From NCBI GenBank assembly GCA_013334545.1, contig JAAXXJ010000007.1:3319-27318 (forward strand): 24,000 nt of DNA, given 5' to 3'. The stretch comes from Nitrospirota bacterium. Its GTDB lineage: Bacteria > Nitrospirota > UBA9217. Under the pieces are notes generated by a model. The model searched no databases. It saw only the letters and a program-made list of their open reading frames with translations, and was not told the origin of the DNA. Of the stretch, positions 829 through 21,593 are shown piece after piece (positions within the stretch are counted from its first letter, which is position 1; the number at the start of each line of letters is the position of its first letter). Both the position numbers and the translations under genes were made by a program.

Positions 829-878
829 TCAAAAAAGAAAAGGGCCGCTTGCCTTCGGGAGGCGGCCCGTGTTGTTTC
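829..878 (-). terminator. Rho-independent terminator ending the cytochrome/radical-SAM operon
   Basis: The minus strand reads GGGCCGC-ctcccgaaggcaa-GCGGCCC followed by TTTTCTTTTTT. The 7-bp GC stem is at 872-878 / 842-848 and the T-run corresponds to plus-strand 831-841. It sits 46 nt after the stop at 924. Confidence 0.75.
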
Positions 879-923
879 AAGGTGTGCTCGTTGGTCCATA
901 CCTGCCACCATGGTTCGCGCAGG

Positions 924-2426
924 TCAGACCTTGATCTTTTCCAGCATCTGATGGATCTCCTTCGGCATGACGCCCCTCATGGTCTTGGCGAGGTACGAAC
1001 TGGTGGCTATGATGTGGACCACCTTGATCATGAACTCTCTTTTTCTCGGGCTCATGGCATCGAGGGTGTTCATCTTGTGCATGTAGAAATCCCGTGCCGC
1101 CATGCCGAGCTCCTTTGCCACCTCCTCCAGGGTCATGTTCTTTGGCTTGACGACCGGTTCGACAAGGTTATACCTGCGGTAATCAAAGACCGCCACGTGC
1201 TCCCTGAGCGTGGGGTAGATCTCGGAATAGGGCCAGGGCGCGATCGCCAGAAAGAATGCGAGGTCGGGATTATAGAACTTGGCCAGTTCCACGGTCTTCC
1301 GCATTCCTTCCGCTGTATCATCGGGCATACCGAGCACAAAGGATGTTTCGGAAACGATGTCGTGGGCATTGATCAGATCAATAGCCCGCTTGGACTCCTC
1401 AACCTTGATGTTCTTGTTGAACAGGTCGAGCATCGCCTGATCCGTGGCCTCGACGCCCACGTAGATATGATCGACATGGGCTTTTTTATACTTCTCCATG
1501 ATATCCTCGTCACGGAGGATATCATCAACGCGGGTTTCCATAAGGATCCTGGTGCCCAGGTCCCGCTCGATCAACAGGTCGAGGATCCTTTCCCATCGCT
1601 TGCGGTCAAGCGTCGGCGTCTCGTCGGCGAACATGACCACGTTCACACCGTACCTGCCCCGCAGGTGTTCGAGCTCCGCAACGACGTTCTCGGGGCTCCG
1701 GCCCCGCCAGTTCCTCTGCCAGAACAGCTGCTGGGAGCAGAAGCTGCACCGCTGACTGCATCCGCGCGAGGTGCTGACAATGGCCAGCACCGAGTGCTCC
1801 ATGGGCTTGTACGTATAGATCGGCCAGTCCACGAGGTCCCATGCCATGGGCAGGCTGTCCAGGTCTTTGATGAAAGGCCGGGGAGGCGTGACGCTGACAG
1901 AGCCATTCCGGGCAAAAGCGATGGACCGCACCGAGGAGGGATCGCCATCGTTGGATATACAGTTGATGAGATCGACGACCGTTTCCTCGCCTTCACCCAT
2001 GACGATGTAGTCAACGGGATTGCCCTTCGCCGTCAGGATCTCGTCATAACAGTAGGTCGGGTGCACATTCCCGATGATGGTAATGATCCGGGGATCGATC
2101 TCTTTGGCCAGGGTGAGGACCTTGAGGGCATCCACGATCTCAGCGGTAAAAGCCGTGGTCCCTACCACATCAGGCTTCTCTGCTTCGATCCTCCTGCGGA
2201 TGTCATCATAGGTGTGCCAGTGGCTCATGGCATCGTATATGACCGGCTCATATCCGGCTGCCCGAAGGCTGCCCGCAAGATAGACAAAGGCGACATTCAT
2301 CCATACGCCCGCCGATTCAACAACACCGGAATGGTAGGGCGGGGTGATGAGCAGTATTTTCTTTATTCGATTTGTCATGCAATCCTTCTGTAAATACCCG
2401 ATGCTGTTTCTTGTGAGGCTGTTCAT
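924..2426 (-). CDS. B12-binding domain radical SAM protein (class B rSAM, DUF4070-like C-terminus)
   Basis: 500-aa ORF. The N-terminal Rossmann-like segment KKILLITPPYH...VGTTAFTAEI...IIGNVHPT fits a cobalamin-binding domain. The radical SAM cluster motif is present as STSRGCSQRCSFCSQ (CX4CX2C). The ATG at 2426 overlaps the upstream stop as ATGA. An alternative ATG at 2378 (MTNRIKKILLI...) is preceded by GAAGGA. Confidence 0.85.
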   Translation of the reverse strand: MNSLTRNSIGYLQKDCMTNRIKKILLITPPYHSGVVESAGVWMNVAFVYLAGSLRAAGYEPVIYDAMSHWHTYDDIRRRIEAEKPDVVGTTAFTAEIVDALKVLTLAKEIDPRIITIIGNVHPTYCYDEILTAKGNPVDYIVMGEGEETVVDLINCISNDGDPSSVRSIAFARNGSVSVTPPRPFIKDLDSLPMAWDLVDWPIYTYKPMEHSVLAIVSTSRGCSQRCSFCSQQLFWQRNWRGRSPENVVAELEHLRGRYGVNVVMFADETPTLDRKRWERILDLLIERDLGTRILMETRVDDILRDEDIMEKYKKAHVDHIYVGVEATDQAMLDLFNKNIKVEESKRAIDLINAHDIVSETSFVLGMPDDTAEGMRKTVELAKFYNPDLAFFLAIAPWPYSEIYPTLREHVAVFDYRRYNLVEPVVKPKNMTLEEVAKELGMAARDFYMHKMNTLDAMSPRKREFMIKVVHIIATSSYLAKTMRGVMPKEIHQMLEKIKV

Positions 2427-2770
2427 TTGTACACCATGACATATTGCCAGAAGATGCCGGCGCTGAATACCGCAGACAGCAGGAGATGCTTGATAACGAG
2501 CATGCGTTTTCTCAGCTTTTCGGCATCATCTCCGTAAATATTTCCCACATAGGAGTAGGTGAACATCCTTCCGGCGCCTGCGGCAAGCACCGTCGTGACA
2601 CAGACGAGACCGATAAAGAAGAATTGTTCCTTGAGGCCGAAGAGCAGTCCACCGATGCCTTTTTCCTGTTCTATGCGGTGCACCCAGTACACGGCCAATA
2701 CCGAAGCGGCCCAGCATCCGGCGGCAAAGTCGTGGAGAAATCCGATGAATATGGTAAAGGCCTTTTTCAT
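2423..2770 (-). CDS. small integral membrane protein, unknown function (about 3 TM)
   Basis: ORF 2423-2809. I prefer the ATG at 2770 (MKKAFTIFIGFLHDFAAGCWAASVLAVYW...); the longer form starts at a TTG at 2809. It has three hydrophobic segments and I recognise no family. Its stop overlaps the rSAM start (ATGA), implying translational coupling. Confidence 0.55.
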   Translation of the reverse strand: MKKAFTIFIGFLHDFAAGCWAASVLAVYWVHRIEQEKGIGGLLFGLKEQFFFIGLVCVTTVLAAGAGRMFTYSYVGNIYGDDAEKLRKRMLVIKHLLLSAVFSAGIFWQYVMVYK

Positions 2771-2839
2771 GCACTCGTTCGTTGGAGCGCTCGTTCGTAA
2801 CGGTTTCAACCCGTGATCCGAGAAGCGGGCCGTTGGAGC

Positions 2840-3322
2840 TCAACGTTGTGTATCAGTACCTTCCTGGTCCAGGAAAATATTTTCAAGCACCTTCACCTTC
2901 ATTACTTTCCAGGCGGCCCCAACCCTCACGCATTCATACTGAAGTTTCATTGCAGCCTGAATGATCTGACCGGGATTGCCGCCCGGTTTCAGAGGACGGT
3001 CATAATATCGCCATTGCTCCATGGTTTCAATGAGTTGGGAATCGGGACCGGTTGTCTGGGCGCTCACGATTTCAAGGCGTTCGAGCGTGGCTTCCAGCAC
3101 TAGGCCGCTGCCCCTTTTCGTTGTTACCAGCACGCCGACAATGCGCGCCTCCCGTTCGCCTGCAACATCAGCGAGCCTGGCCGTATCTCCTGTCCTGTGC
3201 GCCATAATGACGGCGCTGTTGTAGGAACGAACGATCTTTAAAGGGTCATCGGCTCGCGTGCAGGCAAAGTCTGCCAGGACAAACGCCGCACTGATCAGAA
3301 TGAATGTCCTGAGCTTAATCAA
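2840..3322 (-). CDS. secreted or lipoprotein of unknown function (160 aa)
   Basis: A TTG start directly abuts the ccsA stop (TAATTG). The N-terminus MIKLRTFILISAAFVLADFAC|TRADD looks like a signal peptide ending in Cys. The rest is soluble with mixed alpha/beta character and no motif I can name. The next in-frame Met is at codon 40 and would remove the signal peptide. Confidence 0.55.
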   Translation of the reverse strand: MIKLRTFILISAAFVLADFACTRADDPLKIVRSYNSAVIMAHRTGDTARLADVAGEREARIVGVLVTTKRGSGLVLEATLERLEIVSAQTTGPDSQLIETMEQWRYYDRPLKPGGNPGQIIQAAMKLQYECVRVGAAWKVMKVKVLENIFLDQEGTDTQR

Positions 3323-4144
3323 TTATCGACCTACCATGTAGGAATTATGAATCGTCGGAACCAGCAAGGTGACGATATACAACACCATGATCGCGAAACC
3401 GAACGCGACAAGCGTGAGATAGGCCATAGGGCGTCCGGACCAGCGATGGATAACCCGTAAGTGCAGGATTACGCCGAAGGCGATCCAGGCCGCCAGAGAA
3501 CTCGTTTCTATGGGATCCCAGGCCCAGTATCTCCCCCACGATTGGTGCGCCCAAAGCGATCCTGCCGCGATCATCACCCCGAGAAAGAAGAACGATACCA
3601 ACAGGAACTGGTGGCTGTAGCGGTCAAGTTTCTCTGCAGAAGGCAGCATGGACAGTCTCCGGTCTGCGCCCCTTTTTATCAGGTAGGCGACAGCGCAACC
3701 GGCAGCAAGCACGATCGTTGCAGCGAAGGCTTTTGCAAATCCGATATGCAGCAAAAGCCAGTAGGACTTGAATATGATGGGAACTTCATACTTGAGACCA
3801 TAGGCGCTGACCGCCCATCCCATGAGAAGAAACACCGCGGGCAGCACCATGGCTCCCAAGCCTTTCAACTCTTTTCTAGCCTGAACCACCCCGACAAACA
3901 TTGCAACCAGGACGAATGCGTTCGCGGACAGGACTTCGTAGCGGCTGCTGTACGGCCCGTGTCCCACCTCGACCCATCTCATTCCGAGCGAAACCGCGTG
4001 CGGGACAAGGGCCAGGAGGGTCAATCTGAAACCCCAGGCGCCGGCCAATTCCCGCTTAAATGCCGCCCAGATAAAAAAACTTGCCGTGGCGAGCGCATAC
4101 AGGGTCACGGCGGTCCAAAAAGAAATCGATTGGGCTATCATCAT
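3323..4144 (-). CDS. ccsA: cytochrome c biogenesis System II heme-handling protein CcsA/ResC
   Basis: 273-aa polytopic membrane protein carrying the tryptophan-rich WWD signature (LWAHQSWGRYWAWDPIETSS) and flanking conserved His residues (VPHAVS..., ILHLRVIH). It lies directly downstream of resB. Start is ATGATG at 4144/4141 after GAGAGGA. Confidence 0.9.
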   Translation of the reverse strand: MMIAQSISFWTAVTLYALATASFFIWAAFKRELAGAWGFRLTLLALVPHAVSLGMRWVEVGHGPYSSRYEVLSANAFVLVAMFVGVVQARKELKGLGAMVLPAVFLLMGWAVSAYGLKYEVPIIFKSYWLLLHIGFAKAFAATIVLAAGCAVAYLIKRGADRRLSMLPSAEKLDRYSHQFLLVSFFFLGVMIAAGSLWAHQSWGRYWAWDPIETSSLAAWIAFGVILHLRVIHRWSGRPMAYLTLVAFGFAIMVLYIVTLLVPTIHNSYMVGR

Positions 4145-4207
4145 TCCTCTCTCATGCGGTGCAGCTTGAACTCAGCGCAATGACGTACTATGAATGCCGG
4201 TACATTA

Positions 4208-5446
4208 TCAGGTTTTACGGTTCTTAAAGCGATACCAGTCATCTGCAAGATTATTCTCATCCTGCGTAAGGTATATCCGCATTGTTCCGGTCGTGTCTTC
4301 CTCAGCGGCAATTCCCGCAGGAATCAGCATGACAGCAGTGCCCGCCACTAAAAGCACGAAACCGAAGAATACCATTGAAACACCGGGGGATCGAGAATAG
4401 GTAAAGCCAGCCCAGTGGCTCAAGGAAACAATTCTTGCTGTCTTGCCACCGAATGCGAAGGGCCGGCCAAGCGTTAGTTCCGTTTTCACTTCTTCCCGAA
4501 GGTGATAAACGCGGAGCTTGCCGGTCCCGAGCGGATCGCTGATATCACGCTCAGCGTCAACGGAAAAGAGTATTGATCCTCCAGAGGGGTCTTTGAACTC
4601 ACCTGCCGATCGTCTTAGTGATTCCTGTCTGAGATGAAGGCTGCGCAGACCCAACCCTTGAATCTCGACATTCAGTGCAAGGCCGAAAGGGATGGCTTGA
4701 TAGATCGATACTCCATTGATGCTCACACCCTCGGATCGGTCCAAAATGGTCCGCTGCTCGCTGTCTTGCGTTCGGATCACCACCGTGCTCGCCCGGTCGG
4801 GCGCATAACCCTCCTGGTGGAGATAGGGATCGAACTGTTCAAGAGCGAGCTGAATAGGGGGTAGAGCAGATGCGGCGAAGAGGCCTGCATTCCGGTCGAA
4901 AATCACGCCGCGATCGGACAAGCGGACAATTTCACCTTCACCGATCTCGAACGAACCGGCATCATGATAGGCCTGTTGCACCAGTATTCCCAAAATCAGC
5001 AGCACGAGCCCGACATGGAAGAGCCAGCCCCTGGTCAGCGCGAAGCGGTTTCTAAAATAGGGTGGGCTGCTTTTCGTGCGGAAACCCTGTTCTTTCAGAA
5101 ACGTGGTGAAATCGCGTTCCGTTTTGACTGCTAGAACTTTTCCGCGCTGGGGGATGTTTCCCTTTAGGAGCGTCCATGCACGGCCCGTACGTTCGATCGT
5201 GCAGGCGAGGGTATTTGCGAGGAGCAAAAAAACGGCGACCAGGAACGGCGCCGAGCTGAATGGCCGGTCAAGACCGGCTGCCAGGGCCCAGCTCGGGGCT
5301 TTTACGGATCGATCAAGGTTCCAGGGAAGCCAGGAGACCACGCCGATGAAGGTCGCCAGAATGATGAGAATTGAGAGAGCAAGGCGCGGCGAAGAAAGGA
5401 AGCTCCCAATCCTTTTCCGCCGCGCCTGATCGTCCATTAACGTCAT
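4208..5446 (-). CDS. resB: cytochrome c biogenesis System II protein ResB/CcsB
   Basis: ORF 4208-5452 (TTG); I prefer the ATG at 5446. It has an N-terminal basic stretch then a TM (RRKRIGSFLSSPRLALSILIILATF...), a second TM pair, a large soluble (periplasmic) domain and a C-terminal TM (VFFGFVLLVAGTAVMLIPAG). This is the ResB topology, and the gene pairs with ccsA. It starts 7-13 nt after the cytochrome stop. Confidence 0.8.
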   Translation of the reverse strand: MTLMDDQARRKRIGSFLSSPRLALSILIILATFIGVVSWLPWNLDRSVKAPSWALAAGLDRPFSSAPFLVAVFLLLANTLACTIERTGRAWTLLKGNIPQRGKVLAVKTERDFTTFLKEQGFRTKSSPPYFRNRFALTRGWLFHVGLVLLILGILVQQAYHDAGSFEIGEGEIVRLSDRGVIFDRNAGLFAASALPPIQLALEQFDPYLHQEGYAPDRASTVVIRTQDSEQRTILDRSEGVSINGVSIYQAIPFGLALNVEIQGLGLRSLHLRQESLRRSAGEFKDPSGGSILFSVDAERDISDPLGTGKLRVYHLREEVKTELTLGRPFAFGGKTARIVSLSHWAGFTYSRSPGVSMVFFGFVLLVAGTAVMLIPAGIAAEEDTTGTMRIYLTQDENNLADDWYRFKNRKT

Positions 5447-5459
5447 GCCCAATGATACG

Positions 5460-7940
5460 TCAGTGGCCCGAGCCGTTGCAGCCGCAATTACTTCGGGTCC
5501 AGTTTGTCGTATTATTCGCCGGATAGCTATTTATGTACAGCCTGTCGCCAGTGGCCGCTCTCATGTAGGGCGCGGAATTCACCGCTGTCGGAGGAGGAAC
5601 TCCCGCGCCCCGGCCAGCCGCAGAATGGAGAAGTCCTGGATGTTCACTGCCATGCGGTATCATGACGTGGCATTTCGAGCAGGCGATACTGTGGTCGCCG
5701 CGCGAGTGTTCCGGGAAACGGCCATTGCCGTCGTTGTTTGCGTGGCAGTTCAAGCAGAAGGTCCCTGCTGGCATCCATGCATTATTCGACAAACTCGCTA
5801 TTGTGGCATTCCATGTTGTGTTCGGGCCCTTCAGGATGAAGTTAGCGGCCGAACCATGCGGTCCGTTCGGATCCGTGATTGTATCCGAAGCGTGGCAATC
5901 TGAACAGGTCATGAAGCTCGATGTTGTCCAAGGTGCGATAATATTGTTTGTTCTACCGAGGTTATTCGTGGCTGCAGCCAAAACAGGATGGAATGAACCG
6001 GCTGTCTCGCCGCTTGCCCAAGCACCTGCATAGCTGCCGACATTATTCGGATTGAACTCCCGTGCCACGTCGGTCATGGCATAACTGCCGGATGGGGAGG
6101 TGGTGTTGTACGTTCCCGAATACACGGTATGGCACTTGAAGCACAGGGTCGCCTCAGGATCGGTACCGGAAACGATCGTTTTCTGCGTAAAGTTACCCGC
6201 TGTGGGCGCAATCCAGAAGCCCGGGTATGTTGTGAATGCAGCGCCGGTGGCTCCATTCAGAACTCCTCCCGCGGCATTTGTCTGCGCAGTATGGTTGCCT
6301 GCCTTGGCCTGGTGTGCACTATGGCAGTCACTGCATTTCTCGGAACTGTGCTTTCTCGTTTTTCCGAACTGCGTCTGGATATTGCTGGTCGCGCCGTTAG
6401 CCACCGTGGTCCCATGACAGTTGTAGCAGAAGTTACCCGCGTTCGTGGCAAGATATGCAGCGATCGTTGTATCGTAGGTGAACCGCATCATCTTATATTG
6501 GCCGGAGCCGTGGGCATTCGCAGTGCCTGCATTGCCATGACACGCCAGGCAGCCACCATATACACCATTCACACTATGCGCCTGCTGCGCCGCTGTCCAG
6601 CCGATGTTCGCGGGAGACGTGTTGTCTCCGGCCACACTAAAGGGTGAAAGCGCGTTGCCGCCGAGCCTAGTTGCTCCCGTGCCGTCGTGACAGCTGGAGC
6701 AGACCTGTTCTATCCCTGCAGGCGTGGTTGCGACATAGTTCCCCGGCGTTTTGGGGTCTCTCAACTGAACATTCGGCGATGCAGGTGCGCCTGCCGGATG
6801 TCCAAAATCGGTCACCAAGTCGCCATGGCAGACTGCGCAGGCATCTCTGTTCACGATCTCCGCCGTCGTTCCATCGGTCACATGGTGGTAGGTCTTTACG
6901 AAATCTCCGCTCGATCCGGTTACGACCCTGCGTCCATTCCGGGAAGAGCGGTGACAGGAGACGCAGTCTCCCGCCTGGCCATGGCAGAGCGTATTGTTGA
7001 AGCATCCCGGATTAGCTCCCGGTGGAAGTGGAGCATAGACAGGAGTCGGTGGATTTCCCAAGTGACAAAGCCCGCAAGCCGGGGCATTGGTCTCATCAGT
7101 CGTTGGGTGTTTCCTTGTCGACGTCGACTGCCACGGGAAGGCGTGGGGAGAATCCACTCCGGCGCCATGACAGCCGCCCGTGTTCAGGCAGGTGGGCGCA
7201 ATACCAGCACCGGCGAAATTATCCCCGTGGCAGCCCTGGCAGGAACTGAAGCCTGTCGCGGCCTTTGCGGCTGCTCCGTGAGCAGCAGGGTCGTTCCAGC
7301 CGGGAGCGTGCCCTACCTGGCCGTGGCAAAGGGTATTATTGAAGCAGCCCGGCGTCCCGGCTACAAGATTCGTTGGAACGGGGACCGACGTCAAGTTGGC
7401 ACCAAGTGCATGACAATCGGCGCAAACTGCTGCATTTCCTGTATTCGTGTCTGTATGCGTTCGTGCACTGCCCGCACTTGTACGCCAAGGCGTCGGCGAA
7501 TGCGGAGAATCGACCGTCGCGCCATGACAGCCGGCCGTGTTCAAACAAGTGATCGCGAAGCCTCCGGAAAAATCCGCTCCATGGCAGTGCCCGCAGTCGG
7601 CGAATCCCGTGCTTGAGGAGGGGGCTGCTTTCGCTTCAGCTCCATGCTGTGCTGGATCGTTCCAGCCTGCAGGATGCGCATGGCAGGATATACCATTAAA
7701 GGAAGCTGAATAACAGCTTACCCCGGATATGCCGCCCGTAAGGTCGGAACCGTGGCATTCTGTGCACTGGCTCGCGTCCGAGAGAAATACCGCCGGGTGG
7801 TCCGCGACCCAGTTGTCAGGGTGCTTCCCTGTTTTGGAATCAAATATCGCGCCGCCCTTGCGCGCATCGGTGCAAGCGCCGGCCAGCAGCAACAGCCCGA
7901 TGCTCAGGGTGAAGCCAATTCGCACGCTTATCGATGACAT
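5460..7940 (-). CDS. large multiheme c-type cytochrome, probable lipoprotein (15 CXXCH plus 4 CX5CH plus 1 CX9CH)
   Basis: ORF 5460-7949 (GTG); the ATG at 7940 is preceded by GAGAGGTG. Signal peptide: ...TLSIGLLLLAGAC|TDARK. I counted 15 CXXCH motifs by eye: CTECH, CGHCH, CADCH, CQGCH, CGLCH, CVSCH, CAVCH, CSSCH, CLACH, CYNCH, CSDCH, CFKCH, CSDCH, CLNCH, CSKCH. Also present are CLNTAGCH, CFNNTLCH (twice), CLNTGGCH and CYSASFNGISCH. The remaining sequence is Gly/Ala/Thr/Asn-rich and not hydrophobic. Confidence 0.9.
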   Translation of the reverse strand: MSSISVRIGFTLSIGLLLLAGACTDARKGGAIFDSKTGKHPDNWVADHPAVFLSDASQCTECHGSDLTGGISGVSCYSASFNGISCHAHPAGWNDPAQHGAEAKAAPSSSTGFADCGHCHGADFSGGFAITCLNTAGCHGATVDSPHSPTPWRTSAGSARTHTDTNTGNAAVCADCHALGANLTSVPVPTNLVAGTPGCFNNTLCHGQVGHAPGWNDPAAHGAAAKAATGFSSCQGCHGDNFAGAGIAPTCLNTGGCHGAGVDSPHAFPWQSTSTRKHPTTDETNAPACGLCHLGNPPTPVYAPLPPGANPGCFNNTLCHGQAGDCVSCHRSSRNGRRVVTGSSGDFVKTYHHVTDGTTAEIVNRDACAVCHGDLVTDFGHPAGAPASPNVQLRDPKTPGNYVATTPAGIEQVCSSCHDGTGATRLGGNALSPFSVAGDNTSPANIGWTAAQQAHSVNGVYGGCLACHGNAGTANAHGSGQYKMMRFTYDTTIAAYLATNAGNFCYNCHGTTVANGATSNIQTQFGKTRKHSSEKCSDCHSAHQAKAGNHTAQTNAAGGVLNGATGAAFTTYPGFWIAPTAGNFTQKTIVSGTDPEATLCFKCHTVYSGTYNTTSPSGSYAMTDVAREFNPNNVGSYAGAWASGETAGSFHPVLAAATNNLGRTNNIIAPWTTSSFMTCSDCHASDTITDPNGPHGSAANFILKGPNTTWNATIASLSNNAWMPAGTFCLNCHANNDGNGRFPEHSRGDHSIACSKCHVMIPHGSEHPGLLHSAAGRGAGVPPPTAVNSAPYMRAATGDRLYINSYPANNTTNWTRSNCGCNGSGH

Positions 7941-8371
7941 GTTCTGCACCTCTCATTGTTCTGATACCCGTGGCAGGGGAAGCAGGACGCGGGGTCCAGC
8001 TTGCCGTCGATCTTGTGCTGGTTCAGGTAATCCCCACGGTGCGGCATCGTTCTCTGCGGGGCATCCTTGTACTTATCACTGGGCTTCAGCTCTTCCTTGT
8101 TCGCGTGGCAGTCCGCGCAGAAGGCCTGCGTGTGGCAGAGCTCGCAGGTCCGCTTCTGCTGGGCGGCCGAGAACTGGTGCCGGCTGGCCCAGTTCTCCCG
8201 GTGGTCCATGGAGGTGCGCCAGTCGGTGTGGCAGTTGCTGCAGACCGGCATGCCCTGCACCTCCATGGGGTGCTTCGCCGGGAGGCTCTGCGTGGTCGCG
8301 CAGGCGAACAGGATGCCGGCGATCATCATTGCCATACTGCCGAGGATCAGGGTCTTTGCTGTTCCGCTCAT
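7928..8371 (-). CDS. small pentaheme c-type cytochrome, probable lipoprotein
   Basis: 147 aa. Signal peptide MSGTAKTLILGSMAMMIAGILFAC|ATTQS. Five CXXCH motifs (CSNCH, CELCH, CADCH, CFPCH, CRTCH) fall within about 120 mature residues. ATG at 8371 after AGGAGAGG. The 3' end overlaps the next cytochrome start by 13 nt. Confidence 0.9.
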   Translation of the reverse strand: MSGTAKTLILGSMAMMIAGILFACATTQSLPAKHPMEVQGMPVCSNCHTDWRTSMDHRENWASRHQFSAAQQKRTCELCHTQAFCADCHANKEELKPSDKYKDAPQRTMPHRGDYLNQHKIDGKLDPASCFPCHGYQNNERCRTCHR

Positions 8372-8394
8372 GGCCTCTCCTGAATGGTGCTGCC

Positions 8395-9708
8395 CTAGGG
8401 CTTCTTCCCGCCGGGCTTTGCGGCGCCGGCGGACGGCGCAGTCTTGGCCGCTCCGCCGAGCTTTGCATCGAAGTTATAGACGAAGTTCAGCATGCCGCGT
8501 ACTTCCCGGATGACGTCGGGATTCGAGACGTACTCCACATCGGCGACGACACGGGTCCTTGGTGAGAAGGTGTAACCTGCGGCAGCGGTCCCCGTGTAGG
8601 CATCTGACACGCCGTTGACCGGCTGATCGTAGGACACATGGACGAAATCGAGGGTTATATCCGCTTTGGCGATCTTCTTGAACACGTACACGCGCTGATC
8701 ATCGTAGCAAAGGTCGTCGGACGGCCCGTTCATGCGATGCAGGGCGACCCCGGCGCCGAAGCCGGCGCCCGTGTACACGACGCTGCCTCCCCCATAGGTC
8801 GCCGAATCGTTCAGGACCTGGTAATCGTAGTTCCGATAATCAGCAATGACCGTGACCGGCCCGCCGATGGTTATGGCGATGCTCCCGCCGGCCATGGTGA
8901 CGATCTCGTTCGGATCGATGTTCGTGAACGAGAAGGCGCTCATCAGCATGCTCTGCGTGGTATTGACCGCCGAGAAATATTCTTTATACCAGGTCTTTGA
9001 GGCGTTGAGGTTCAGGCGGAACCATGCAAACGGGCCGATTGCTGCGTGATACTGGTGCTGCATCCAGTTCTTGGACGAACCGTTATAGGACGATGTGCCC
9101 ATGAGCTCCAGCTTGCTCAGCGGCCTGATCCACAGGTCAAGGCCCTCTTCCTTGCGGAAGTCCTTTCCGTCGTTCTTTTCCTTCAGGTAGGACACGCCGA
9201 TGGTGTAGATGCCGGGCAATCCCTGGGAGACCCTGCCGCCGTACGCTGAATCCCCAGAACGCGTGTCGCCGTCGGTCTCGACGGGATTGCCGCCATATGC
9301 CGCGATGGTGAAACCGCCCTTGAGGTCCGTGCGGGCATAGGCACCGTCGATCTGCGCTGAGGCGACCCCCTCATTTACCCGGAGCCTCCCGAAGCTCAGC
9401 GCCGAGTTGCCGGTTTTCCTTTTCAGGGTCACATAGGCGTACTGGAGGTCTCCGGTGGATGTTGAGCCAAACTGCTCGTTCTGCAGATCATACCGGTACC
9501 ATCCTCCGAAATGGAATGAGACGGCATCAGAGCCTGTTTTGCCGGCTGTGAAGCTGAGATATTCATACAGCGGCAGGTACCGCGTGCCATCTGTGGCCTG
9601 GCTGGACTGAAGATAGGTGCGTGACTGCCCCGCAAGGTCGACGGCTGAAGCGGTAAGGGGGAGCGAAACAAGGAGGGACAATGATGCGGCGACGCGAAGT
9701 GATCTCAT
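8395..9708 (-). CDS. outer-membrane beta-barrel (porin-like) protein
   Basis: 437 aa. Sec signal MRSLRVAASLSLLVSLPLTASA|VDLAG. The sequence is rich in alternating aromatic/polar beta-strand patterns (YEYLSFTAG, VSFHFGGWYRYDL, YAYVTLKR, FTIAAYGG, YTIGVSYLK, ADITLDFVHVSY, AAAGYTFS). A beta-signal-like ...GMLNFVYNF is followed by a 24-aa Lys/Ala/Gly/Pro tail. It is the first gene of the operon. Confidence 0.75.
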   Translation of the reverse strand: MRSLRVAASLSLLVSLPLTASAVDLAGQSRTYLQSSQATDGTRYLPLYEYLSFTAGKTGSDAVSFHFGGWYRYDLQNEQFGSTSTGDLQYAYVTLKRKTGNSALSFGRLRVNEGVASAQIDGAYARTDLKGGFTIAAYGGNPVETDGDTRSGDSAYGGRVSQGLPGIYTIGVSYLKEKNDGKDFRKEEGLDLWIRPLSKLELMGTSSYNGSSKNWMQHQYHAAIGPFAWFRLNLNASKTWYKEYFSAVNTTQSMLMSAFSFTNIDPNEIVTMAGGSIAITIGGPVTVIADYRNYDYQVLNDSATYGGGSVVYTGAGFGAGVALHRMNGPSDDLCYDDQRVYVFKKIAKADITLDFVHVSYDQPVNGVSDAYTGTAAAGYTFSPRTRVVADVEYVSNPDVIREVRGMLNFVYNFDAKLGGAAKTAPSAGAAKPGGKKP

Positions 9709-9767
9709 GCTTTCATGCTCCTCGGGAGGGGAGTTTTCACCACAGATACCGCATCTATTGCAAAACT

Positions 9768-9796
9768 ATTGTATAGATTCTTCCTGGCCGTGTCAA
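9768..9796 (-). promoter_or_regulatory. sigma70-type promoter of the barrel-cytochrome operon
   Basis: The minus strand reads TTGACA (9796-9791), a 17-nt spacer, then TACAAT (9773-9768). It lies about 60 nt upstream of the ATG at 9708. The 7-bp inverted repeat ACTATTG/CAATAGT (9765-9771 / 9794-9800) overlaps both hexamers. Confidence 0.65.
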
Positions 9797-9851
9797 TAGT
9801 GCTCACGGTGATCCTGATCACAAAAATGATTCCAGCCGGGTGTCCACGGAC

Positions 9852-9969
9852 GAATCCAGGAGCGAGTGCATTCCCCATTGCTTGCTGCGGGGTTAGCGAG
9901 CAATTAGAATAAATAGTAACTACCTTGAGGATCGAAGATTTCCTGCAGCTTGCTGCAGGGAGCTTCAAT
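9852..9969 (+). repeat. interspersed ~117-bp repeat element, copy A
   Basis: By hand alignment it is about 90% identical to 13000-13116 in the same orientation (roughly a dozen differences including one indel). It contains the direct repeat AGCGAGC (twice), an AT-rich core AGAATAAATAGTA and a terminal hairpin CCTGCAG-cttg-CTGCAGG. Sequence beyond both ends is unrelated. Confidence 0.85.
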
Positions 9970-10158
9970 TGCCCCGTGAGACGTCCGCTCTCGGCACATG
10001 CCTGGGCTCACTGGCCGATCCGGCGATGGGGAAGTCGTCCCTTGATTTCTCCCTTCGGCTAGTGTACCTTTTACCTATATCATCCCTATCGTGGCCTGGC
10101 TGATCGCAGAGGACATGTGAGGGATGAGGAGTTCTGCATATTTCCCAAGGAGGAGCCT

Positions 10159-11408: not shown

Positions 11409-11627
11409 ATTCGGACCATGTCCAATCACGGTCTCGCACGGTCTTGTGCCCTGTCAGTGACCAACCGAAGCGACAGCCCACCAAAATACTTGCCAATCAT
11501 TTCGTCTTATAGTACTCTTATCGGCGGGTATCGTGCTGAGGGCTTTCCCGTCGTTCGGTCCTGTCCATCTGCGCTGCGGCAGTGACCTTGTGGCCGGAAC
11601 ACAGGGTTTTCCTGTGAGGAGGAAGCA

Positions 11628-12467
11628 ATGAAAATAACCTGCTGGGGGGCCAGGGGCTCCATCGCGGTGTCCGGGAAGGACTACGTGAAGTACGGCGGGG
11701 ACACGACGTGCGTTGAGGTACGAAGCAAGAACAACGACATCATCATCCTCGACGCGGGCACCGGCATGCGGCGTCTCGGGAACCAGCTCCTCGCCTCCAA
11801 TGAGCGCGACCTCAGCATCCTCTTCACGCACGCCCACTGGGATCACCTCATGGGATTTCCCTTCTTCAAGCCGATCTATATGAAAGGGACGTCGATCGCG
11901 ATGTATGGCTGTCCGTACGCGCAGAAATCCGTCAAGGCCATGATCGGCAACACAATGGTGGCGCCCTATTTCCCGGTGGACTACGGCCTGTTGCAGGCGG
12001 AGATCTCCTCCCACAGTGTGTGCAAGGAATCGTTCCAGATAGGGCCGGTTACCATCACGCCCATAGCCCTGAGCCATCCGAACATGGGGATCGGGTACAG
12101 GCTCGCCGAGGACGGCAAGAGCTTTGTTTTCCTGACGGACAACGAGCTGGCGCACAAGCACCATGGCGGCCTCGGCTATGATGATTACCTCCGGTTCTCC
12201 GAAGGTGCCGACCTGCTGGTCCACGACGCGGAATATACACCGGACCAGTATGCGATGACCAAGGGGTGGGGGCATTCCCTCTATACCGATGCCCTGCGCC
12301 TGGCCATGGAGGCGAAGGTGAAGCAGTTCGGGCTTTTCCATCACAATCAGGACCGTACGGACGCGCAGCAGGACAAGATCGTTGACGACTGCAGAAGCAT
12401 CGCCAAAGAGAAGAAGGCGCAGCTCACCTGCTTTGCCCTCGAGCCGCACATGGAGATTTCGCTGTAG
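11628..12467 (+). CDS. MBL-fold metallo-hydrolase (COG1235/PhnP-like)
   Basis: 279 aa. ATG follows GAGGAGGAAG. It carries the metallo-beta-lactamase signature LFTHAHWDHLMGFPFF and downstream metal ligands (ALSHPN, LVHDAEY, GHS, LFHHN). Confidence 0.85.
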   Translation: MKITCWGARGSIAVSGKDYVKYGGDTTCVEVRSKNNDIIILDAGTGMRRLGNQLLASNERDLSILFTHAHWDHLMGFPFFKPIYMKGTSIAMYGCPYAQKSVKAMIGNTMVAPYFPVDYGLLQAEISSHSVCKESFQIGPVTITPIALSHPNMGIGYRLAEDGKSFVFLTDNELAHKHHGGLGYDDYLRFSEGADLLVHDAEYTPDQYAMTKGWGHSLYTDALRLAMEAKVKQFGLFHHNQDRTDAQQDKIVDDCRSIAKEKKAQLTCFALEPHMEISL

Positions 12468-12669
12468 CCCGGCCCTGCAATTCCCGGATCCTTTCTCCCG
12501 CCTGTTTTTTTCCGGACCCTGCAACGCATGATGCCTTGGATCGCCTGGAGGACAGGGCATGTCCTCCCGAAGAGCGCAGCGCCGCAGGGGCCGCGCACGC
12601 ATGCGGAACAGAACGCCATTCTCTTCGGGCGTCTTCAGACGAAAAATGCGTCCGGGGAACAAATGCCCC

Positions 12670-12714
12670 TTGACAAAAGAAGGCTCGCCTGCTAATGTTA
12701 TGTGCATATGCACA
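12670..12714 (+). promoter_or_regulatory. sigma70-type promoter plus palindromic operator of the DUF134 operon
   Basis: TTGACA (12670-12675), a 17-nt spacer, then TAATGT (12693-12698). It is immediately followed by the perfect 14-bp palindrome TGTGCATATGCACA (12701-12714) over the expected transcription start. AGGAGG at 12719-12724 and the ATG at 12730 follow. Confidence 0.65.
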
Positions 12715-12729
12715 ATATAGGAGGTGTTC

Positions 12730-13044
12730 ATGTCGCCACGGTGCAAGAAACCGCGGAACTGCCGATGCACCTTTAAGGGCAAGGCCTTCAAGCCTACCTG
12801 CGTCCCTATGGCAGAGGTCGAGCAGATCCCCCTCCTGCGGGAGGAACTCGAGGCCTTAAAGCTCTGCGATCTGGATGACCTCACACAGGCGGAAGCCGGC
12901 ATGAAGATGAGGGTGTCGCGAGGGACCGTTCAACGAATACTTGCTGTTGCACGGAAGAAGGTTGCGAAAGCGCTGAGCAAAGGCCAGGCCATCGTATTTG
13001 AATCCAGGAGCGAGCGCATTCCCCGTAGCTTGCCGCGGGATTAG
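12730..13044 (+). CDS. DUF134 (UPF0251) family predicted DNA-binding protein
   Basis: MSPRCKKPRNCRCTFKGKAFKPTCVP...IPLLREELEALKLCDLDDLTQAEAGMKMRVSRGTVQRILAVARKKVAKAL matches the DUF134 pattern: a Cys/basic N-terminus, FKP, then a sigma-70 region 4-like HTH. The last ~15 codons and the stop lie inside repeat copy B. Confidence 0.85.
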   Translation: MSPRCKKPRNCRCTFKGKAFKPTCVPMAEVEQIPLLREELEALKLCDLDDLTQAEAGMKMRVSRGTVQRILAVARKKVAKALSKGQAIVFESRSERIPRSLPRD

Positions 13045-16363: not shown

Positions 16364-16570
16364 TTAAATGAAGACCTCGATCTGGCGAATTGTCACGGTT
16401 AACGGTATGCCCTTTTCCGCCCGTACTTCGAAGCACTCTTTTATCGCTTCCTGGATGTTCTTCTCCGCCTCCTGCTCGGTCGCCCCCTGGCTTACACAGC
16501 CGGGAATGGCAGGACATTCGGCAATATACACCCCGTCCTCATCCTGAGATATTGTTATGGTGAACATCAT
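16364..16570 (-). CDS. HicB-like antitoxin-fold protein (UPF0150), no DNA-binding domain
   Basis: 68 aa. FTITISQDEDGVYIAECPAIPGCVSQGATEQEAEKNIQEAIKECFE is the classic HicB N-terminal / UPF0150 signature (...PGC.sqG.T.eEA..n..eAi...). Confidence 0.8.
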   Translation of the reverse strand: MMFTITISQDEDGVYIAECPAIPGCVSQGATEQEAEKNIQEAIKECFEVRAEKGIPLTVTIRQIEVFI

Positions 16571-16584
16571 GCGACGGCATCTCT

Positions 16585-16794
16585 TTAAGCGGGAATCAGG
16601 TCAGCAATCAACGGTTTTTCCTTAGACAAGCGGCTAACGCCCATTACAGTAAAACCCAAAACATTTCCCTGTTCGTCCACACGCTCCATCACTGCTTCGT
16701 TATTTGTTTCCTTCATATAGCCGGCCTTATCGGAGAACTGGACCTCCAAGAAATCCCCCTCTGGATCAAACCAAACTTTTATTTGCTGGGCCAT
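16585..16794 (-). CDS. DUF2283 family small protein
   Basis: 69 aa. IKVWFDPEGDFLEVQFSDK...VDEQGNVLGFTVMGVS matches the DUF2283 pattern (YD.e.D.l.i......vd.d..G.ivGiei). ATG follows AGGGGGGT. It overlaps the upstream gene by 16 nt. Confidence 0.75.
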   Translation of the reverse strand: MAQQIKVWFDPEGDFLEVQFSDKAGYMKETNNEAVMERVDEQGNVLGFTVMGVSRLSKEKPLIADLIPA

Positions 16795-19960: not shown

Positions 19961-20051
19961 GCAGAAAAGACTATTACAATTGATGAAAAATGGCAAGCGA
20001 TGAATCCGATGTGGTTCGCTGTTAGGTGCGTTTCCCGGCCGGTTTTTCTGA

Positions 20052-20108: not shown

Positions 20109-21593
<1,485 letters not shown>

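What the first reader, a model, noticed from the sequence alone, without database searches (positions are those of the whole stretch)
924..9796. Candidate porin-cytochrome electron conduit operon that carries its own maturation genes
Eight co-directional genes are packed with minimal spacing, between one strong promoter (TTGACA-17-TACAAT) and one clear terminator.

Spacing seen in the sequence:
- 23-nt gap with an RBS at 8372-8394.
- 13-nt overlap at 7928-7940.
- 7-13-nt gap at 5447-5459.
- TAA/TTG abutment at 3322/3323.
- ATGA overlap at 2423-2426.

The first three products are a 437-aa signal-peptide beta-barrel, a 5-heme small cytochrome and an 826-aa 15-20-heme probable lipoprotein. They reproduce the logic of known outer-membrane electron conduits (Geobacter Pcc OmbB/OmaB/OmcB, Shewanella MtrCAB). 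Their sizes and heme counts match neither.

I am not aware of a described conduit operon that also encodes ResB, CcsA, a secreted 160-aa protein, a small membrane protein and a B12-radical SAM enzyme. The set looks like a self-contained 'build and install' module for extracellular or periplasm-spanning electron transfer.
Basis: partly seen in the sequence, partly recalled or inferred. Interest (0 to 1): 0.82.

Follow-up and report, generated by a model that had tools for sequence, protein, structure and literature searches.

The report
Electron-conduit operon with dedicated haem-attachment genes
An uncultured Nitrospirota bacterium carries one operon for an outer-membrane barrel and two haem-rich lipoproteins that probably pass electrons across the cell surface, plus a specialised haem-attachment enzyme pair whose presence in other genomes tracks an unusual, conserved C-terminal Cys-Gly-Cys…His tail on the large cytochrome.

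Summary
Eight co-directional minus-strand genes lie between a TTGACA-17-TACAAT promoter and a hairpin plus T-run terminator. The source is Nitrospirae MAG GCA_013336065.1.

The operon joins two separately conserved modules.

Module A is a 22-strand barrel, a 5-haem lipoprotein and a multihaem lipoprotein. It is syntenic in about 60 genomes, including Geothrix fermentans and Geobacteraceae. Its architecture is that of Geobacter ExtBCD, not OmbB/OmaB/OmcB or MtrCAB.

Module B is the C-terminal third of the large cytochrome, then ResB, CcsA and an NTF2-like lipoprotein (p160). In some lineages a CopD-like membrane protein (p128) and a BchE-like B12-radical SAM enzyme follow. Module B also occurs without any barrel.

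The large cytochrome ends in N-C-G-C-N-G-S-G-H. Fifty of the best 150 representative relatives have this tail, and His is the last residue in 42 of them. Some relatives have an ordinary CXnCH at that position.

ResB/CcsA follows the cytochrome in every CGC-tail locus examined. It does not follow it in the four loci with a CXnCH tail. I infer a dedicated System II synthase for an atypical haem site. The role of the radical SAM enzyme remains open.

Dedicated ResB/ResC pairs beside cytochrome genes were already proposed for Geobacter in 2009.

The parts
9768..9796 (-). Sigma-70-type promoter, TTGACA-17-TACAAT
   Evidence: 11 of 12 matches, the best site in 11 kb. It lies 60 nt upstream of the barrel start codon.
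8395..9708 (-). Outer-membrane beta-barrel, 437 aa, with a signal peptide and 22 predicted strands
   Evidence: AlphaFold model with pLDDT 83 and 22 strands. No Pfam or NCBIfam family matches. More than 311 homologues were found, all unnamed. In the loci examined the next gene is a pentahaem cytochrome.
7928..8371 (-). Pentahaem c-type cytochrome, 147 aa, probable lipoprotein (ILFAC lipobox, Cys24)
   Evidence: 5 CXXCH. Every homologue has exactly 5 CXXCH, and nearly all have a [LF][YFA]AC lipobox.
5460..7949 (-). Large multihaem lipoprotein cytochrome, 829 aa from GTG or 826 aa from ATG 7940. It has 15 CXXCH, 4 CX5CH and 1 CX9CH, and it is a mosaic of two domains.
   Evidence: One search gives the motifs. 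One search shows the family is annotated 'CxxxxCH/CxxCH domain-containing'. One search shows that residues 1-327 match the third gene of barrel clusters, while residues 508-829 match the cytochrome upstream of ResB-CcsA-p160 in L013 and L014.
5463..5489 (-). C-terminal tail N-C-G-C-N-G-S-G-H (residues 821-829; His is the last residue). Proposed atypical haem-attachment site.
   Evidence: In the alignment it occupies the place of CXnCH in some relatives. Of the best 150 representative relatives, 50 carry C-x-C-X4-9-H, and His is terminal in 42 of those. It co-occurs with ResB/CcsA.
4208..5452 (-). ResB/CcsB-like subunit of System II cytochrome c synthase, 412-414 aa, divergent
   Evidence: Pfam ResB at 7e-16; no NCBIfam hit. 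Orthologues follow every CGC-tail cytochrome examined.
3323..4144 (-). CcsA/ResC-like subunit, 273 aa, with the WWD motif WGRYWAWDPIE
   Evidence: Pfam Cytochrom_C_asm at 7e-27. TIGR03144 scores 136 bits, below the 187.6 cut-off. The orthogroup is at least 56% identical across CGC-tail loci, against about 32% to other CcsA paralogues.
2840..3322 (-). p160: NTF2-like lipoprotein, 160 aa, with an invariant Cys21
   Evidence: The word-indexed search found 26 close relatives, with Cys21 invariant in all of them; more distant relatives (32-51% identity) appear in metagenome and encoding-contig loci. AlphaFold pLDDT is 87. The best PDB matches are the ARC6/PARC6 intermembrane-space domains (TM 0.67-0.83) and the Tim44 C-terminal domain.
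3002..3030 (-). Internal promoter-like site, TTGAAA-17-TATTAT, inside the p160 gene and upstream of p128
   Evidence: 10 of 12 matches. It could give p128 and the radical SAM enzyme their own transcript. This was not tested.
2423..2809 (-). p128: CopD-like small membrane protein. The likely true start is ATG 2770 (115 aa). I read three transmembrane helices from the sequence. His/Asp in GF[LIV]HD and His in KH are invariant.
   Evidence: All 7 family members weakly match Pfam CopD, best E-value 2e-6. In 5 of the 8 loci where the gene before the radical SAM enzyme can be seen (window/L005, L009, L013, L014, L001/L028, L017), it is p128; in L006, L011 and L012 p160 precedes the enzyme directly.
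924..2426 (-). BchE-like B12-binding radical SAM enzyme, 484-500 aa, with CX3CX2C in GCSQRCSFC
   Evidence: B12-binding and Radical_SAM domains at about 1e-28 each. TIGR02026 BchE scores 400 bits, below the 481 cut-off; the next family scores 140 bits. The enzyme sits after CcsA-p160 in L006, L009, L011, L012, L013 and L014.
831..868 (-). Intrinsic terminator: GGGCCGC / GCGGCCC stem followed by a T-run

Best explanation
The operon encodes an outer-membrane multihaem electron conduit. It also carries a specialised maturation cassette for one atypical site in the conduit's largest cytochrome.

**Shown.**
- A 22-strand barrel, a pentahaem lipoprotein and a 20-21-haem lipoprotein form a module that is conserved from Nitrospirota to Geobacteraceae and Geothrix.
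- The large cytochrome is a fusion. Its N-terminal CXXCH/CX5CH repeat region is typical of such modules. Its C-terminal domain ends in N-C-G-C-N-G-S-G-H.
- Wherever this CGC tail occurs in the loci examined, the cytochrome gene is followed by a divergent ResB/CcsA pair and an NTF2-like lipoprotein (p160).
- Syntenic relatives whose tail is an ordinary CXnCH lack ResB/CcsA.

**Inferred.**
- The barrel houses the small pentahaem protein as the trans-membrane wire, and the large lipoprotein is the surface-exposed part.
- The ResB/CcsA pair is a dedicated System II synthase that attaches haem to the C-x-C-X4-His tail. This would parallel NrfI for CXXCK and CcsA1 for CX15CH in Wolinella.
- p160 binds or presents the His-terminated tail, as ARC6 binds the PDV2 C-terminus.

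**Weakest step.** The CopD-like membrane protein and the BchE-like B12-radical SAM enzyme form a conserved pair. They may prepare or hand over a modified tetrapyrrole, or modify the precursor protein. They may equally be a neighbouring unit with a separate function.
For: **Synteny of barrel, 5-haem and multihaem genes.** It holds in the roughly 60 barrel-family loci that extend past the barrel, including cultured metal reducers. Both cytochromes carry lipoboxes.

**Mosaic cytochrome.**

**Tail.** Its alignment with CXnCH in relatives is shown. Its conservation (50 of 150 representatives; His terminal in 42 of 50; Gly between the cysteines in 47 of 50) is shown.

**Presence and absence of ResB/CcsA.**
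- CGC tail with ResB-CcsA-p160: window/L005, L009, L006, L013, L014, L080 and L083.
- CXnCH tail with no ResB/CcsA following the cytochrome: L081, L082, L084 and L007b.
- L080-L082, and separately L083-L084, share flanking genes, so they are natural with/without comparisons.

**Orthogroup.** CcsA of CGC-tail loci is 56-100% identical to the window's. Other CcsA paralogues near barrel clusters are about 32% identical. The window's ResB and CcsA fall below the NCBIfam equivalog cut-offs.

**Precedents.**
- Dedicated lyases for CXXCK and CX15CH, and a contracted CKCH haem motif (PMC7096707).
- ResB/ResC pairs proposed to be dedicated to nearby multihaem cytochromes in Geobacter (PMC2700814).

**p160 fold.**

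**Radical SAM adjacency.** The enzyme keeps its place after CcsA-p160 down to 50% identity.
Against: - There are no experimental data of any kind. Localisation, complex formation and haem occupancy of the tail are all untested.
- In c-type haem sites the His normally follows the second Cys directly (PMC7096707). Here it lies 4 residues further on.
- Most other relatives have C-X3-6-C-X2-4-H. The site could therefore be a metal site or a disulfide plus His rather than a haem site.
- The presence/absence correlation rests on about five independent CGC lineages against four CXnCH loci. It is confounded by shared descent.
- L017 has its own ResB'/CcsA' pair after a cytochrome with no CGC tail. Dedicated pairs are therefore not exclusive to this tail.
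- The operon encodes no soluble periplasmic multihaem cytochrome (an ExtA or MtrA equivalent).
- The roughly 900-aa decahaem lipoprotein that accompanies most barrel clusters is missing here.
- The radical SAM enzyme and p128 are absent from the CGC-tail loci L080 and L083. In L001 and L017 they sit among other radical SAM and LuxE-like genes.
- The barrel matches only generic outer-membrane barrels in the PDB.
Confidence: 0.55

Rival explanations
1. The conduit reading is right, but ResB/CcsA is simply this organism's general System II machinery, or a copy kept for high expression. On this reading the CGC tail is not a haem site. It is a Cys2-His metal site, a redox-active CXC disulfide, or a C-terminal recognition tag bound by p160 for export or assembly.
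For: - Most relatives of the C-terminal domain have a non-adjacent Cys...His spacing, C-X3-6-C-X2-4-H. This is unlike known haem c motifs (PMC7096707).
- p160 resembles NTF2-like domains that bind C-terminal peptides.
- p160 persists in L081, which has no ResB/CcsA.
- p128 is CopD-like, which hints at metal handling.
- Aklujkar et al. proposed that such pairs serve 'efficient expression' of nearby cytochromes in general.
Against: - ResB/CcsA is lost in the syntenic loci whose tail is a canonical CXnCH (L081, L082, L084). Those cytochromes still carry 17-19 ordinary haem motifs.
- The pair is divergent and scores below the equivalog cut-offs.
- Some homologues have a bona fide CXnCH at the aligned position.
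Confidence: 0.25
2. p128 and the BchE-like radical SAM enzyme are a separate unit, for example lipid or cofactor biosynthesis. It merely abuts the cytochrome operon and has its own promoter. Only six of the eight genes would then belong to the conduit system.
For: - There is an internal promoter-like site at 3030..3002.
- In L001 and L017 the orthologous pair sits with other B12-radical SAM genes and a LuxE-like acyl-protein synthetase.
- The pair is absent from the CGC-tail loci L080 and L083.
- The radical SAM enzyme is 96% identical between the window and L017, although the genes between it and the cytochrome differ.
Against: - CcsA-p160-(p128)-radical SAM adjacency is kept in L006, L009 and L011-L014, down to 50% radical SAM identity and 32% p160 identity.
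- No terminator lies between p160 and p128.
- In three Nitrospirota genomes the pair is always beside the barrel cluster, although the arrangement differs.
Confidence: 0.4
3. The barrel is an ordinary porin or substrate channel, and the cytochromes are periplasmic electron carriers or stores. On this reading no trans-outer-membrane conduit exists.
For: The barrel has no specific family assignment. Its PDB fold matches are generic barrels such as FimD, AlgE and Occ, with TM-scores of 0.54 or less. No soluble periplasmic multihaem partner is encoded in the operon.
Against: - The barrel gene is followed by the pentahaem lipoprotein gene in the roughly 60 loci examined that extend past it, across four phyla.
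- The taxa are enriched for known extracellular electron-transfer organisms: Geothrix, Geobacteraceae and Geomesophilobacter.
- The architecture equals ExtBCD, which has genetic evidence as a conduit in G. sulfurreducens (PMC6148476).
Confidence: 0.1

Closest known systems
Geobacter sulfurreducens ExtABCD, and the ExtE-ExtF pair of ExtEFG (outer-membrane conduit clusters; PMC6148476)
   Same: - The gene order is barrel, then pentahaem lipoprotein cytochrome, then a larger multihaem lipoprotein cytochrome.
- Contiguous extBCD loci without extA are documented.
- A Holophaga porin-cytochrome cluster was assigned to the ExtB/E family (PMC7399161), and the barrel family here includes Holophagaceae.
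   Different: - Sequence homology to ExtB or ExtC could not be tested, because no G. sulfurreducens sequence was available.
- The large cytochrome has 20-21 haem motifs against ExtD's 12.
- The barrel has 22 predicted strands against 18 for ExtB and 21 for ExtE.
- There is no ExtA-like periplasmic dodecahaem cytochrome.
- The description of the Ext clusters read here does not mention ResB/CcsA, an NTF2 lipoprotein or a radical SAM enzyme.
Dedicated cytochrome c haem lyases: Wolinella NrfI (CXXCK) and CcsA1 (CX15CH of MccA); Shewanella SirEFG
   Same: A paralogous synthase is encoded next to a cytochrome that carries one non-CXXCH site. Presence of the synthase tracks the atypical motif.
   Different: - The motif here is C-x-C-X4-His at the extreme C-terminus, with His not adjacent to Cys. 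This motif is not in the list of described motifs.
- The synthase is a split ResB plus CcsA pair.
- It is accompanied by a lipoprotein and, in some lineages, by a radical SAM enzyme.
- There is no genetic proof.
Geobacter ResB/ResC pairs co-transcribed with multihaem cytochrome genes (Aklujkar et al. 2009, PMC2700814)
   Same: System II pairs sit inside cytochrome operons and were proposed to be dedicated to the neighbouring cytochromes.
   Different: That proposal named no target motif. It did not involve a barrel, p160, p128 or a radical SAM enzyme.
MtrCAB (Shewanella) and OmbB-OmaB-OmcB (Geobacter Pcc)
   Same: The general logic is shared: a barrel plus multihaem cytochromes, with a surface lipoprotein cytochrome.
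   Different: - There is no Pfam MtrB_PioB match.
- The barrel has 22 strands against 26 for MtrB (the MtrB figure is from my own knowledge).
- The small cytochrome is a 5-haem lipoprotein, not a soluble 8-10-haem periplasmic protein.
Contracted CKCH haem motif of a Kuenenia tetrahaem cytochrome (Ferousi et al. 2019, cited in PMC7096707)
   Same: It shows that two cysteines separated by one residue can make a functional haem c site.
   Different: In that motif His follows Cys directly. Here four or more residues intervene, and His is the C-terminal residue.
BchE (anaerobic Mg-protoporphyrin IX monomethyl ester cyclase)
   Same: It is by far the best family match (400 bits, against 140 for the next family), with the B12-binding and radical SAM domains covered. 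BchE acts on a tetrapyrrole (my own knowledge).
   Different: The score is below the equivalog cut-off of 481. No photosynthesis genes are nearby. The context is haem c maturation.

Membership tests
Porin-cytochrome conduit, generic (MtrCAB / Pcc type) | An outer-membrane beta-barrel gene lies next to multihaem c-type cytochrome genes in one operon | tested here: met
   The arrangement is conserved in about 60 genomes.
Porin-cytochrome conduit, generic (MtrCAB / Pcc type) | The barrel belongs to the MtrB/PioB or OmbB sequence family | tested here: not met
   No Pfam match (including MtrB_PioB) or NCBIfam match at E <= 0.1. No PDB sequence match. MtrB is not among the top 50 fold matches. OmbB itself could not be compared.
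Porin-cytochrome conduit, generic (MtrCAB / Pcc type) | A soluble periplasmic multihaem cytochrome (8-10 haems) is inserted in the barrel | tested here: not met
   The only small cytochrome has 5 haems and a lipobox. No other cytochrome gene lies in the 24-kb window.
Porin-cytochrome conduit, generic (MtrCAB / Pcc type) | A physical trans-membrane complex forms and transfers electrons | not testable with these tools
   This needs biochemistry. No multimer modelling tool was available.
ExtBCD-type conduit (G. sulfurreducens) | The barrel gene is followed by a pentahaem lipoprotein cytochrome gene | tested here: met
   5 CXXCH and a lipobox in the window and in nearly all homologues. The definition comes from PMC6148476.
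ExtBCD-type conduit (G. sulfurreducens) | A second, larger lipoprotein multihaem cytochrome lies downstream | tested here: met
   829 aa, LLAGAC lipobox, 20-21 motifs. The haem number differs from the 12 of ExtD.
ExtBCD-type conduit (G. sulfurreducens) | Sequence homology to ExtB, ExtC and ExtD | not testable with these tools
   No G. sulfurreducens sequences could be retrieved. The only evidence is indirect: a Holophaga porin-cytochrome cluster was assigned to the ExtB/E family.
System II cytochrome c synthase (ResB/CcsB + CcsA/ResC) | ResB domain, plus a CcsA domain with the WWD motif and flanking histidines | tested here: met
   Pfam ResB at 7e-16 and Cytochrom_C_asm at 7e-27. WGRYWAWDPIE and flanking histidines are seen in the sequence.
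System II cytochrome c synthase (ResB/CcsB + CcsA/ResC) | Scores as an equivalog of housekeeping CcsB/CcsA | tested here: not met
   TIGR03144 scores 136 bits, below the 187.6 cut-off. ResB has no NCBIfam hit.
Dedicated haem lyase for an atypical motif (NrfI / CcsA1 class) | A paralogous synthase is encoded beside a cytochrome with a non-CXXCH site, and its presence tracks that site | tested here: met
   Seven CGC-tail loci have it. Four CXnCH-tail loci have none following the cytochrome. The sample is small and phylogenetically structured.
Dedicated haem lyase for an atypical motif (NrfI / CcsA1 class) | The synthase is genetically required for haem attachment at that site only | not testable with these tools
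   This needs knock-out or heterologous maturation experiments plus mass spectrometry.
BchE | Reaches the TIGR02026 equivalog score and lies among bacteriochlorophyll genes | tested here: not met
   400 bits, below 481. No bch genes lie in the window.
Class B (B12-dependent) radical SAM enzymes | An N-terminal B12-binding domain, a radical SAM core and a CX3CX2C motif | tested here: met
   PF02310 at 2.5e-28 and PF04055 at 5e-28. The motif is GCSQRCSFC.
NTF2-like fold (ARC6/PARC6 intermembrane-space domain, Tim44 C-terminal domain) | An alpha+beta cone: three helices packed on a curved antiparallel sheet | tested here: met
   Model pLDDT 87. Foldseek against ARC6 5had gives E 6e-7, target-normalised TM 0.81 and rmsd 2.2 A. 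Peptide binding was not tested.
CopD | Matches the Pfam CopD domain above the gathering score | tested here: not met
   All 7 family members hit CopD, but only weakly. The best E-value is 2e-6, and the window protein scores 14.6 bits against a cut-off of 32.1.

The most novel reading that the evidence does not exclude
N-C-G-C-X4-His-COOH is a previously undescribed type of covalent haem c attachment site. It closes the C-terminus of a large family of giant extracellular multihaem cytochromes. It is made by its own ResB/CcsA subfamily with the help of a tail-binding NTF2-like lipoprotein. In Nitrospirota and some other lineages, a BchE-like B12-radical SAM enzyme with a CopD-like membrane partner supplies a modified tetrapyrrole, or modifies the precursor protein, for this site.
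Probability: 0.3. Interest if true: 0.85.

Novelty: new variant of a known kind. Interest (0 to 1): 0.68.

Why it matters
**The conduit family.** Outer-membrane cytochrome conduits drive microbial iron and manganese cycling, corrosion and bioelectrochemistry. Only a few families, from Shewanella and Geobacter, have been studied experimentally. The barrel plus pentahaem-lipoprotein family here is unnamed in Pfam and NCBIfam. It spans Nitrospirota, Desulfuromonadia and Acidobacteriota. It includes cultured organisms in which it could be tested, namely Geothrix fermentans and Geomesophilobacter sediminis.

**The tail.** The analysis also yields a concrete, testable hypothesis about cytochrome maturation. 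A strictly conserved C-terminal Cys-Gly-Cys...His tail occurs on cytochromes of up to 3111 residues and 63 CXXCH motifs. Its presence predicts a private ResB/CcsA synthase.

**If the tail binds haem.** That would extend the known rules of haem c attachment, in which His is normally adjacent to Cys. It would also give a sequence marker for a whole class of extracellular cytochromes and a handle for expressing them heterologously.

**The radical SAM link.** A BchE-like radical SAM enzyme sits next to a haem exporter-synthase. This is an unexplained lead on possible tetrapyrrole or protein modification.

Tried and rejected
- **CX5CH motifs as the reason for the dedicated synthase: rejected.** L020, L022, L026, L047, L055 and L061 have CX5CH-bearing cytochromes in barrel clusters with no adjacent ResB/CcsA.
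- **All eight genes as one conserved synteny block: rejected.** A relative with 80% barrel identity lacks the five downstream genes, and module B occurs without a barrel.
- **p160 relatives in species-representative genomes.** None were found. The word-indexed search returned only 26 close relatives, and eight more loci came from metagenomes.
- **Solved structures.** PDB sequence searches for the barrel, both cytochromes and p128 found nothing useful.
- **AFDB fold search.** The library was unavailable. It might have linked the barrel to named Geobacter proteins.
- **Direct comparison with ExtB, ExtC, OmbB or MtrB sequences.** This was not possible. Supplements of PMC11492766 are not held, and Shi et al. 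2014 does not mention the relevant loci.
- **Literature searches.** Searches for BchE-like radical SAM enzymes linked to cytochromes or ResB returned nothing.
- **The 969-aa ORF at 17087-19996 as the missing decahaem lipoprotein: rejected.** It is an Eco57I-like restriction-modification enzyme.
- **RNA genes.** Rfam and tRNA scans of the window found nothing.
- **Terminator between p160 and p128.** None was found.

Full report
**1. What is in the sequence**

Eight minus-strand ORFs fill window positions 924-9708.

Profile searches give the following assignments:

| Protein | Result |
|---|---|
| 437 aa | no family |
| 147 aa | weak cytochrome c7 / MtrC-domain hits |
| 829 aa | multihaem families (Paired_CXXCH_1, c7, c3) |
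| 414 aa | ResB (7e-16) |
| 273 aa | cytochrome c assembly domain (7e-27); TIGR03144 at 136 bits, below the 187.6 cut-off |
| 160 aa | nothing |
| 128 aa | faint CopD |
| 500 aa | B12-binding plus radical SAM; best family BchE at 400 bits (cut-off 481), next family 140 bits |

- The promoter TTGACA-17-TACAAT (9796..9768) is the best site in 11 kb.
- The terminator is a 7-bp G+C stem followed by a T-run at 868-831.
Homologues and the GenBank annotation start the radical SAM enzyme at Met17 and the small membrane protein at MKKAFT. The ATGA overlap is therefore doubtful.
- Haem motifs: the small cytochrome has 5 CXXCH. The large one has 15 CXXCH, 4 CX5CH and 1 CX9CH.
- The window is identical to contig JAAXUJ010000044.1 of Nitrospirae MAG GCA_013336065.1.

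**2. Module A: barrel, pentahaem lipoprotein and multihaem lipoprotein**

- The barrel has more than 311 homologues, all unnamed.
- AlphaFold with a 52-sequence alignment gives a 22-strand barrel with mean pLDDT 83.
- In the PDB the model resembles only generic outer-membrane barrels, with TM-scores of 0.54 or less. There is no sequence match to any solved structure.
- A scan of species-representative genomes returned 63 loci. They come from Nitrospirota, Geobacteraceae and other Desulfuromonadales, Geomesophilobacter sediminis, Geothrix fermentans DSM 14018, G. alkalitolerans, other Holophagaceae and a Solibacteraceae MAG.
- In every locus that extends past the barrel, the next gene is a 146-157-aa cytochrome with exactly five CXXCH. 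After it comes a cytochrome of 140-1152 aa that mixes CXXCH with CX3-5CH motifs.
- Nearly all pentahaem proteins carry a lipobox, [LF][YFA]AC. The large cytochrome has LLAGAC.

This is the architecture described for G. sulfurreducens ExtB (barrel), ExtC (pentahaem lipoprotein) and ExtD (multihaem lipoprotein). Contiguous extBCD without extA is documented (PMC6148476). A Holophaga cluster has been assigned to the ExtB/E family (PMC7399161). I could not obtain Ext sequences, so sequence-level membership is untested.

Two things are missing from the window. There is no soluble periplasmic multihaem partner. The roughly 900-1060-aa decahaem lipoprotein that accompanies most of these clusters elsewhere is also absent.

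**3. Module B and the mosaic cytochrome**

A relative with 80% barrel identity has this order: nitroreductase, barrel, 147-aa cytochrome, 321-aa cytochrome, MarC. These are the window's own flanking genes. The long cytochrome extension and the five downstream genes are missing there.

Conversely, full-length relatives of the large cytochrome are followed by ResB-CcsA-p160 with no barrel upstream (L006).

tblastn over all loci splits the large cytochrome into two parts.
- Residues 1-327 match the third gene of barrel clusters: 72% in L017, 50% in L001 and 40% in Geothrix.
- Residues 508-829 match the cytochrome that precedes ResB-CcsA-p160-p128-radical SAM in L013 and L014 (51%).

The window's cytochrome, and the operon as a whole, is therefore a junction of two modules.

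L017 belongs to a closely related lineage: barrel 90%, pentahaem protein 97% and radical SAM enzyme 96% identical. Between those anchors it carries different genes: a different cytochrome C-terminal half, a different ResB'/CcsA' pair (32%), an extra radical SAM enzyme, a LuxE-like gene and a 53%-identical p128. This looks like a cassette exchange.

**4. The C-terminal tail and the dedicated synthase**

An alignment of the C-terminal domains shows that several proteins end in ...SYP..N.T.W...N-C-G-C-N-G-[ST]-G-H, with His as the final residue. These are the window protein, L006, L009, L013, and P0121, P0123, P0125 and P0127. Some homologues have an ordinary CXnCH at the same aligned position:

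| Locus | Tail |
|---|---|
| L081 | NCTTGGACH |
| L007b | NCSGAICH |
| L082 | CLTGAGCH... |
| L084 | CWTISGGVCH... |

I searched 1.84 billion representative proteins with residues 501-829. This gave 695 relatives. Of the best 150, 50 carry C-x-C-X4-9-H.
- His is the last residue in 42 of the 50.
- The spacer is 4 residues in 34.
- Gly lies between the cysteines in 47.
- Asn precedes the first Cys in 43.
- These proteins range up to 3111 aa and 63 CXXCH.

Neighbourhoods:
- All seven CGC-tail loci have ResB-CcsA-p160 directly downstream. They are window/L005, L009, L006, L013, L014, L080 and L083.
- The CXnCH-tail loci L081, L082, L084 and L007b do not.
- L080, L081 and L082 share flanking genes (Na+/H+ antiporter upstream, NifS/NifU downstream).
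- L083 and L084 share UbiD-ABC-CBS upstream and come from the same sample.
- These are close to natural with/without comparisons.

The CcsA of CGC-tail loci forms a group 56-100% identical to the window's. Other CcsA paralogues near barrel clusters are about 32% identical.

CX5CH motifs do not explain the synthase. Six barrel clusters have CX5CH cytochromes with no adjacent ResB/CcsA.

Relevant precedents:
- dedicated lyases for CXXCK and CX15CH, and a contracted CKCH haem site (PMC7096707);
- the 2009 suggestion that Geobacter ResB/ResC pairs serve neighbouring cytochromes (PMC2700814).

I therefore infer that this ResB/CcsA pair attaches haem to the C-x-C-X4-His tail.

Caveats:
- His is not adjacent to Cys, which is unlike the described haem c motifs listed.
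- Most other relatives of the domain have C-X3-6-C-X2-4-H, so a metal or redox site is a serious alternative.
- The correlation rests on few lineages.

**5. The accessory genes**

*p160.*
- The word-indexed search returned 26 close relatives. Cys21, the lipobox cysteine, is invariant in all of them.
- The model (pLDDT 87) is an NTF2-like cone. Its best matches are the ARC6/PARC6 intermembrane-space domains and the Tim44 C-terminal domain. From my own knowledge, the ARC6/PARC6 domains bind the C-terminal peptides of PDV2 and PDV1.
- p160 is present wherever the cytochrome ends at or shortly after the tail His. This includes L081, which lacks ResB/CcsA. It is absent where the tail runs on 10-13 residues past the His (L082, L084).
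- A tail-binding role is a reasonable but untested guess.

*p128.*
- I read three transmembrane helices from the sequence.
- His/Asp in GF[LIV]HDFAAGCW and His in KH are invariant.
- All seven family members weakly match CopD.

*The radical SAM enzyme.*
- It follows CcsA-p160, with or without p128, in L006, L009 and L011-L014, down to 50% identity.
- It is missing from L080 and L083.
- In L001 and L017 it lies among other radical SAM and LuxE-like genes.
- A promoter-like site inside the p160 gene could transcribe p128 and the radical SAM gene separately. No terminator precedes them.
- Its substrate is unknown. Its strong similarity to BchE and its position beside a haem exporter-synthase make a tetrapyrrole, or the cytochrome precursor, the most attractive candidates. 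That is speculation.

**6. Verdict**

- The conduit interpretation is supported. It should be re-framed as ExtBCD-like.
- The 'own maturation genes' idea is supported and can be sharpened. It is a specialised synthase cassette tied to a conserved atypical C-terminal tail.
- The general idea has a precedent in Geobacter.
- The system is a new variant of known kinds. The barrel family is unnamed in Pfam and NCBIfam. The literature searches I ran found no description of the tail motif, or of its link to a CcsA subfamily, an NTF2-like lipoprotein and a BchE-like radical SAM enzyme.

Noticed in passing
window 16364-19996 (-): A low-GC island (44-48%, against about 58% elsewhere). It holds an Eco57I-like type IIG restriction-modification enzyme (969 aa), a PBECR2 nuclease-like gene, a DUF2283 gene and a HicB-like antitoxin gene. 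It is probably horizontally acquired.
   Followed up: partly
L017 11764-21311, compared with window 924-7949: Cassette exchange between close relatives. The barrel (90%), pentahaem protein (97%), N-terminal third of the large cytochrome (72%) and radical SAM enzyme (96%) are conserved. Everything between them is replaced. L017 has a different cytochrome C-terminal half, a ResB'/CcsA' pair (32%), an extra B12-radical SAM enzyme, a LuxE-like gene and a 53%-identical p128.
   Followed up: partly
loci L002, L030, L033-L036, L042 and L046 (upstream of the barrel); L039-L041, L048, L053, L056, L058-L060, L063, L064, L066, L069, L071, L073 and L079 (downstream): A 750-1065-aa lipoprotein with exactly 10 CXXCH accompanies most barrel clusters. 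Its haem density is low, and it gives weak hits to MtrC/MtrF domains II/IV. It is absent from the window. It may be the terminal surface reductase of the family.
   Followed up: no
proteins P0267-P0412 (relatives of window residues 501-829): Outside the CGC-tail group, most relatives end in C-X3-6-C-X2-4-H, followed by about 8-12 residues that end in W or WP. Only about 10 of the 150 have a canonical CXnCH. The whole domain family may carry a non-canonical terminal Cys2-His site.
   Followed up: partly
L007 1-7818: A Geobacteraceae contig has two large cytochromes of this family flanking a ResB'/CcsA' pair. The upstream one ends in ...GCGSHQNCN, another atypical tail. The downstream one ends in a canonical CSGAICH and is followed by a 32-residue remnant of p160.
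   Followed up: partly
L001 1733-8655 and 15329-17137: In another Nitrospirota genome the barrel cluster is embedded among four B12-radical SAM genes, a LuxE-like acyl-protein synthetase and a methyltransferase. This suggests a larger biosynthetic neighbourhood of unknown product.
   Followed up: no
window 849-2393 (+), 11454-12902 (-), 20121-21614 (-): Long ORFs lie antisense to real genes: the radical SAM gene, the metallo-beta-lactamase-fold gene at 11628-12467 (+), and trpE. I take them to be shadow ORFs of a G+C-rich genome, not genes. Of the three, only 20121-21614 was scanned; it has no family hit, while trpE on the opposite strand does.
   Followed up: partly
window 9709-10116: A 400-nt intergenic region lies between the divergent nitroreductase gene and the barrel gene. 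It contains repeated GCAGCAAGC-like words (ctgcagcaagctgcag and ccgcagcaagcaatgggg). It could be a regulatory region. No Rfam match was found.
   Followed up: no
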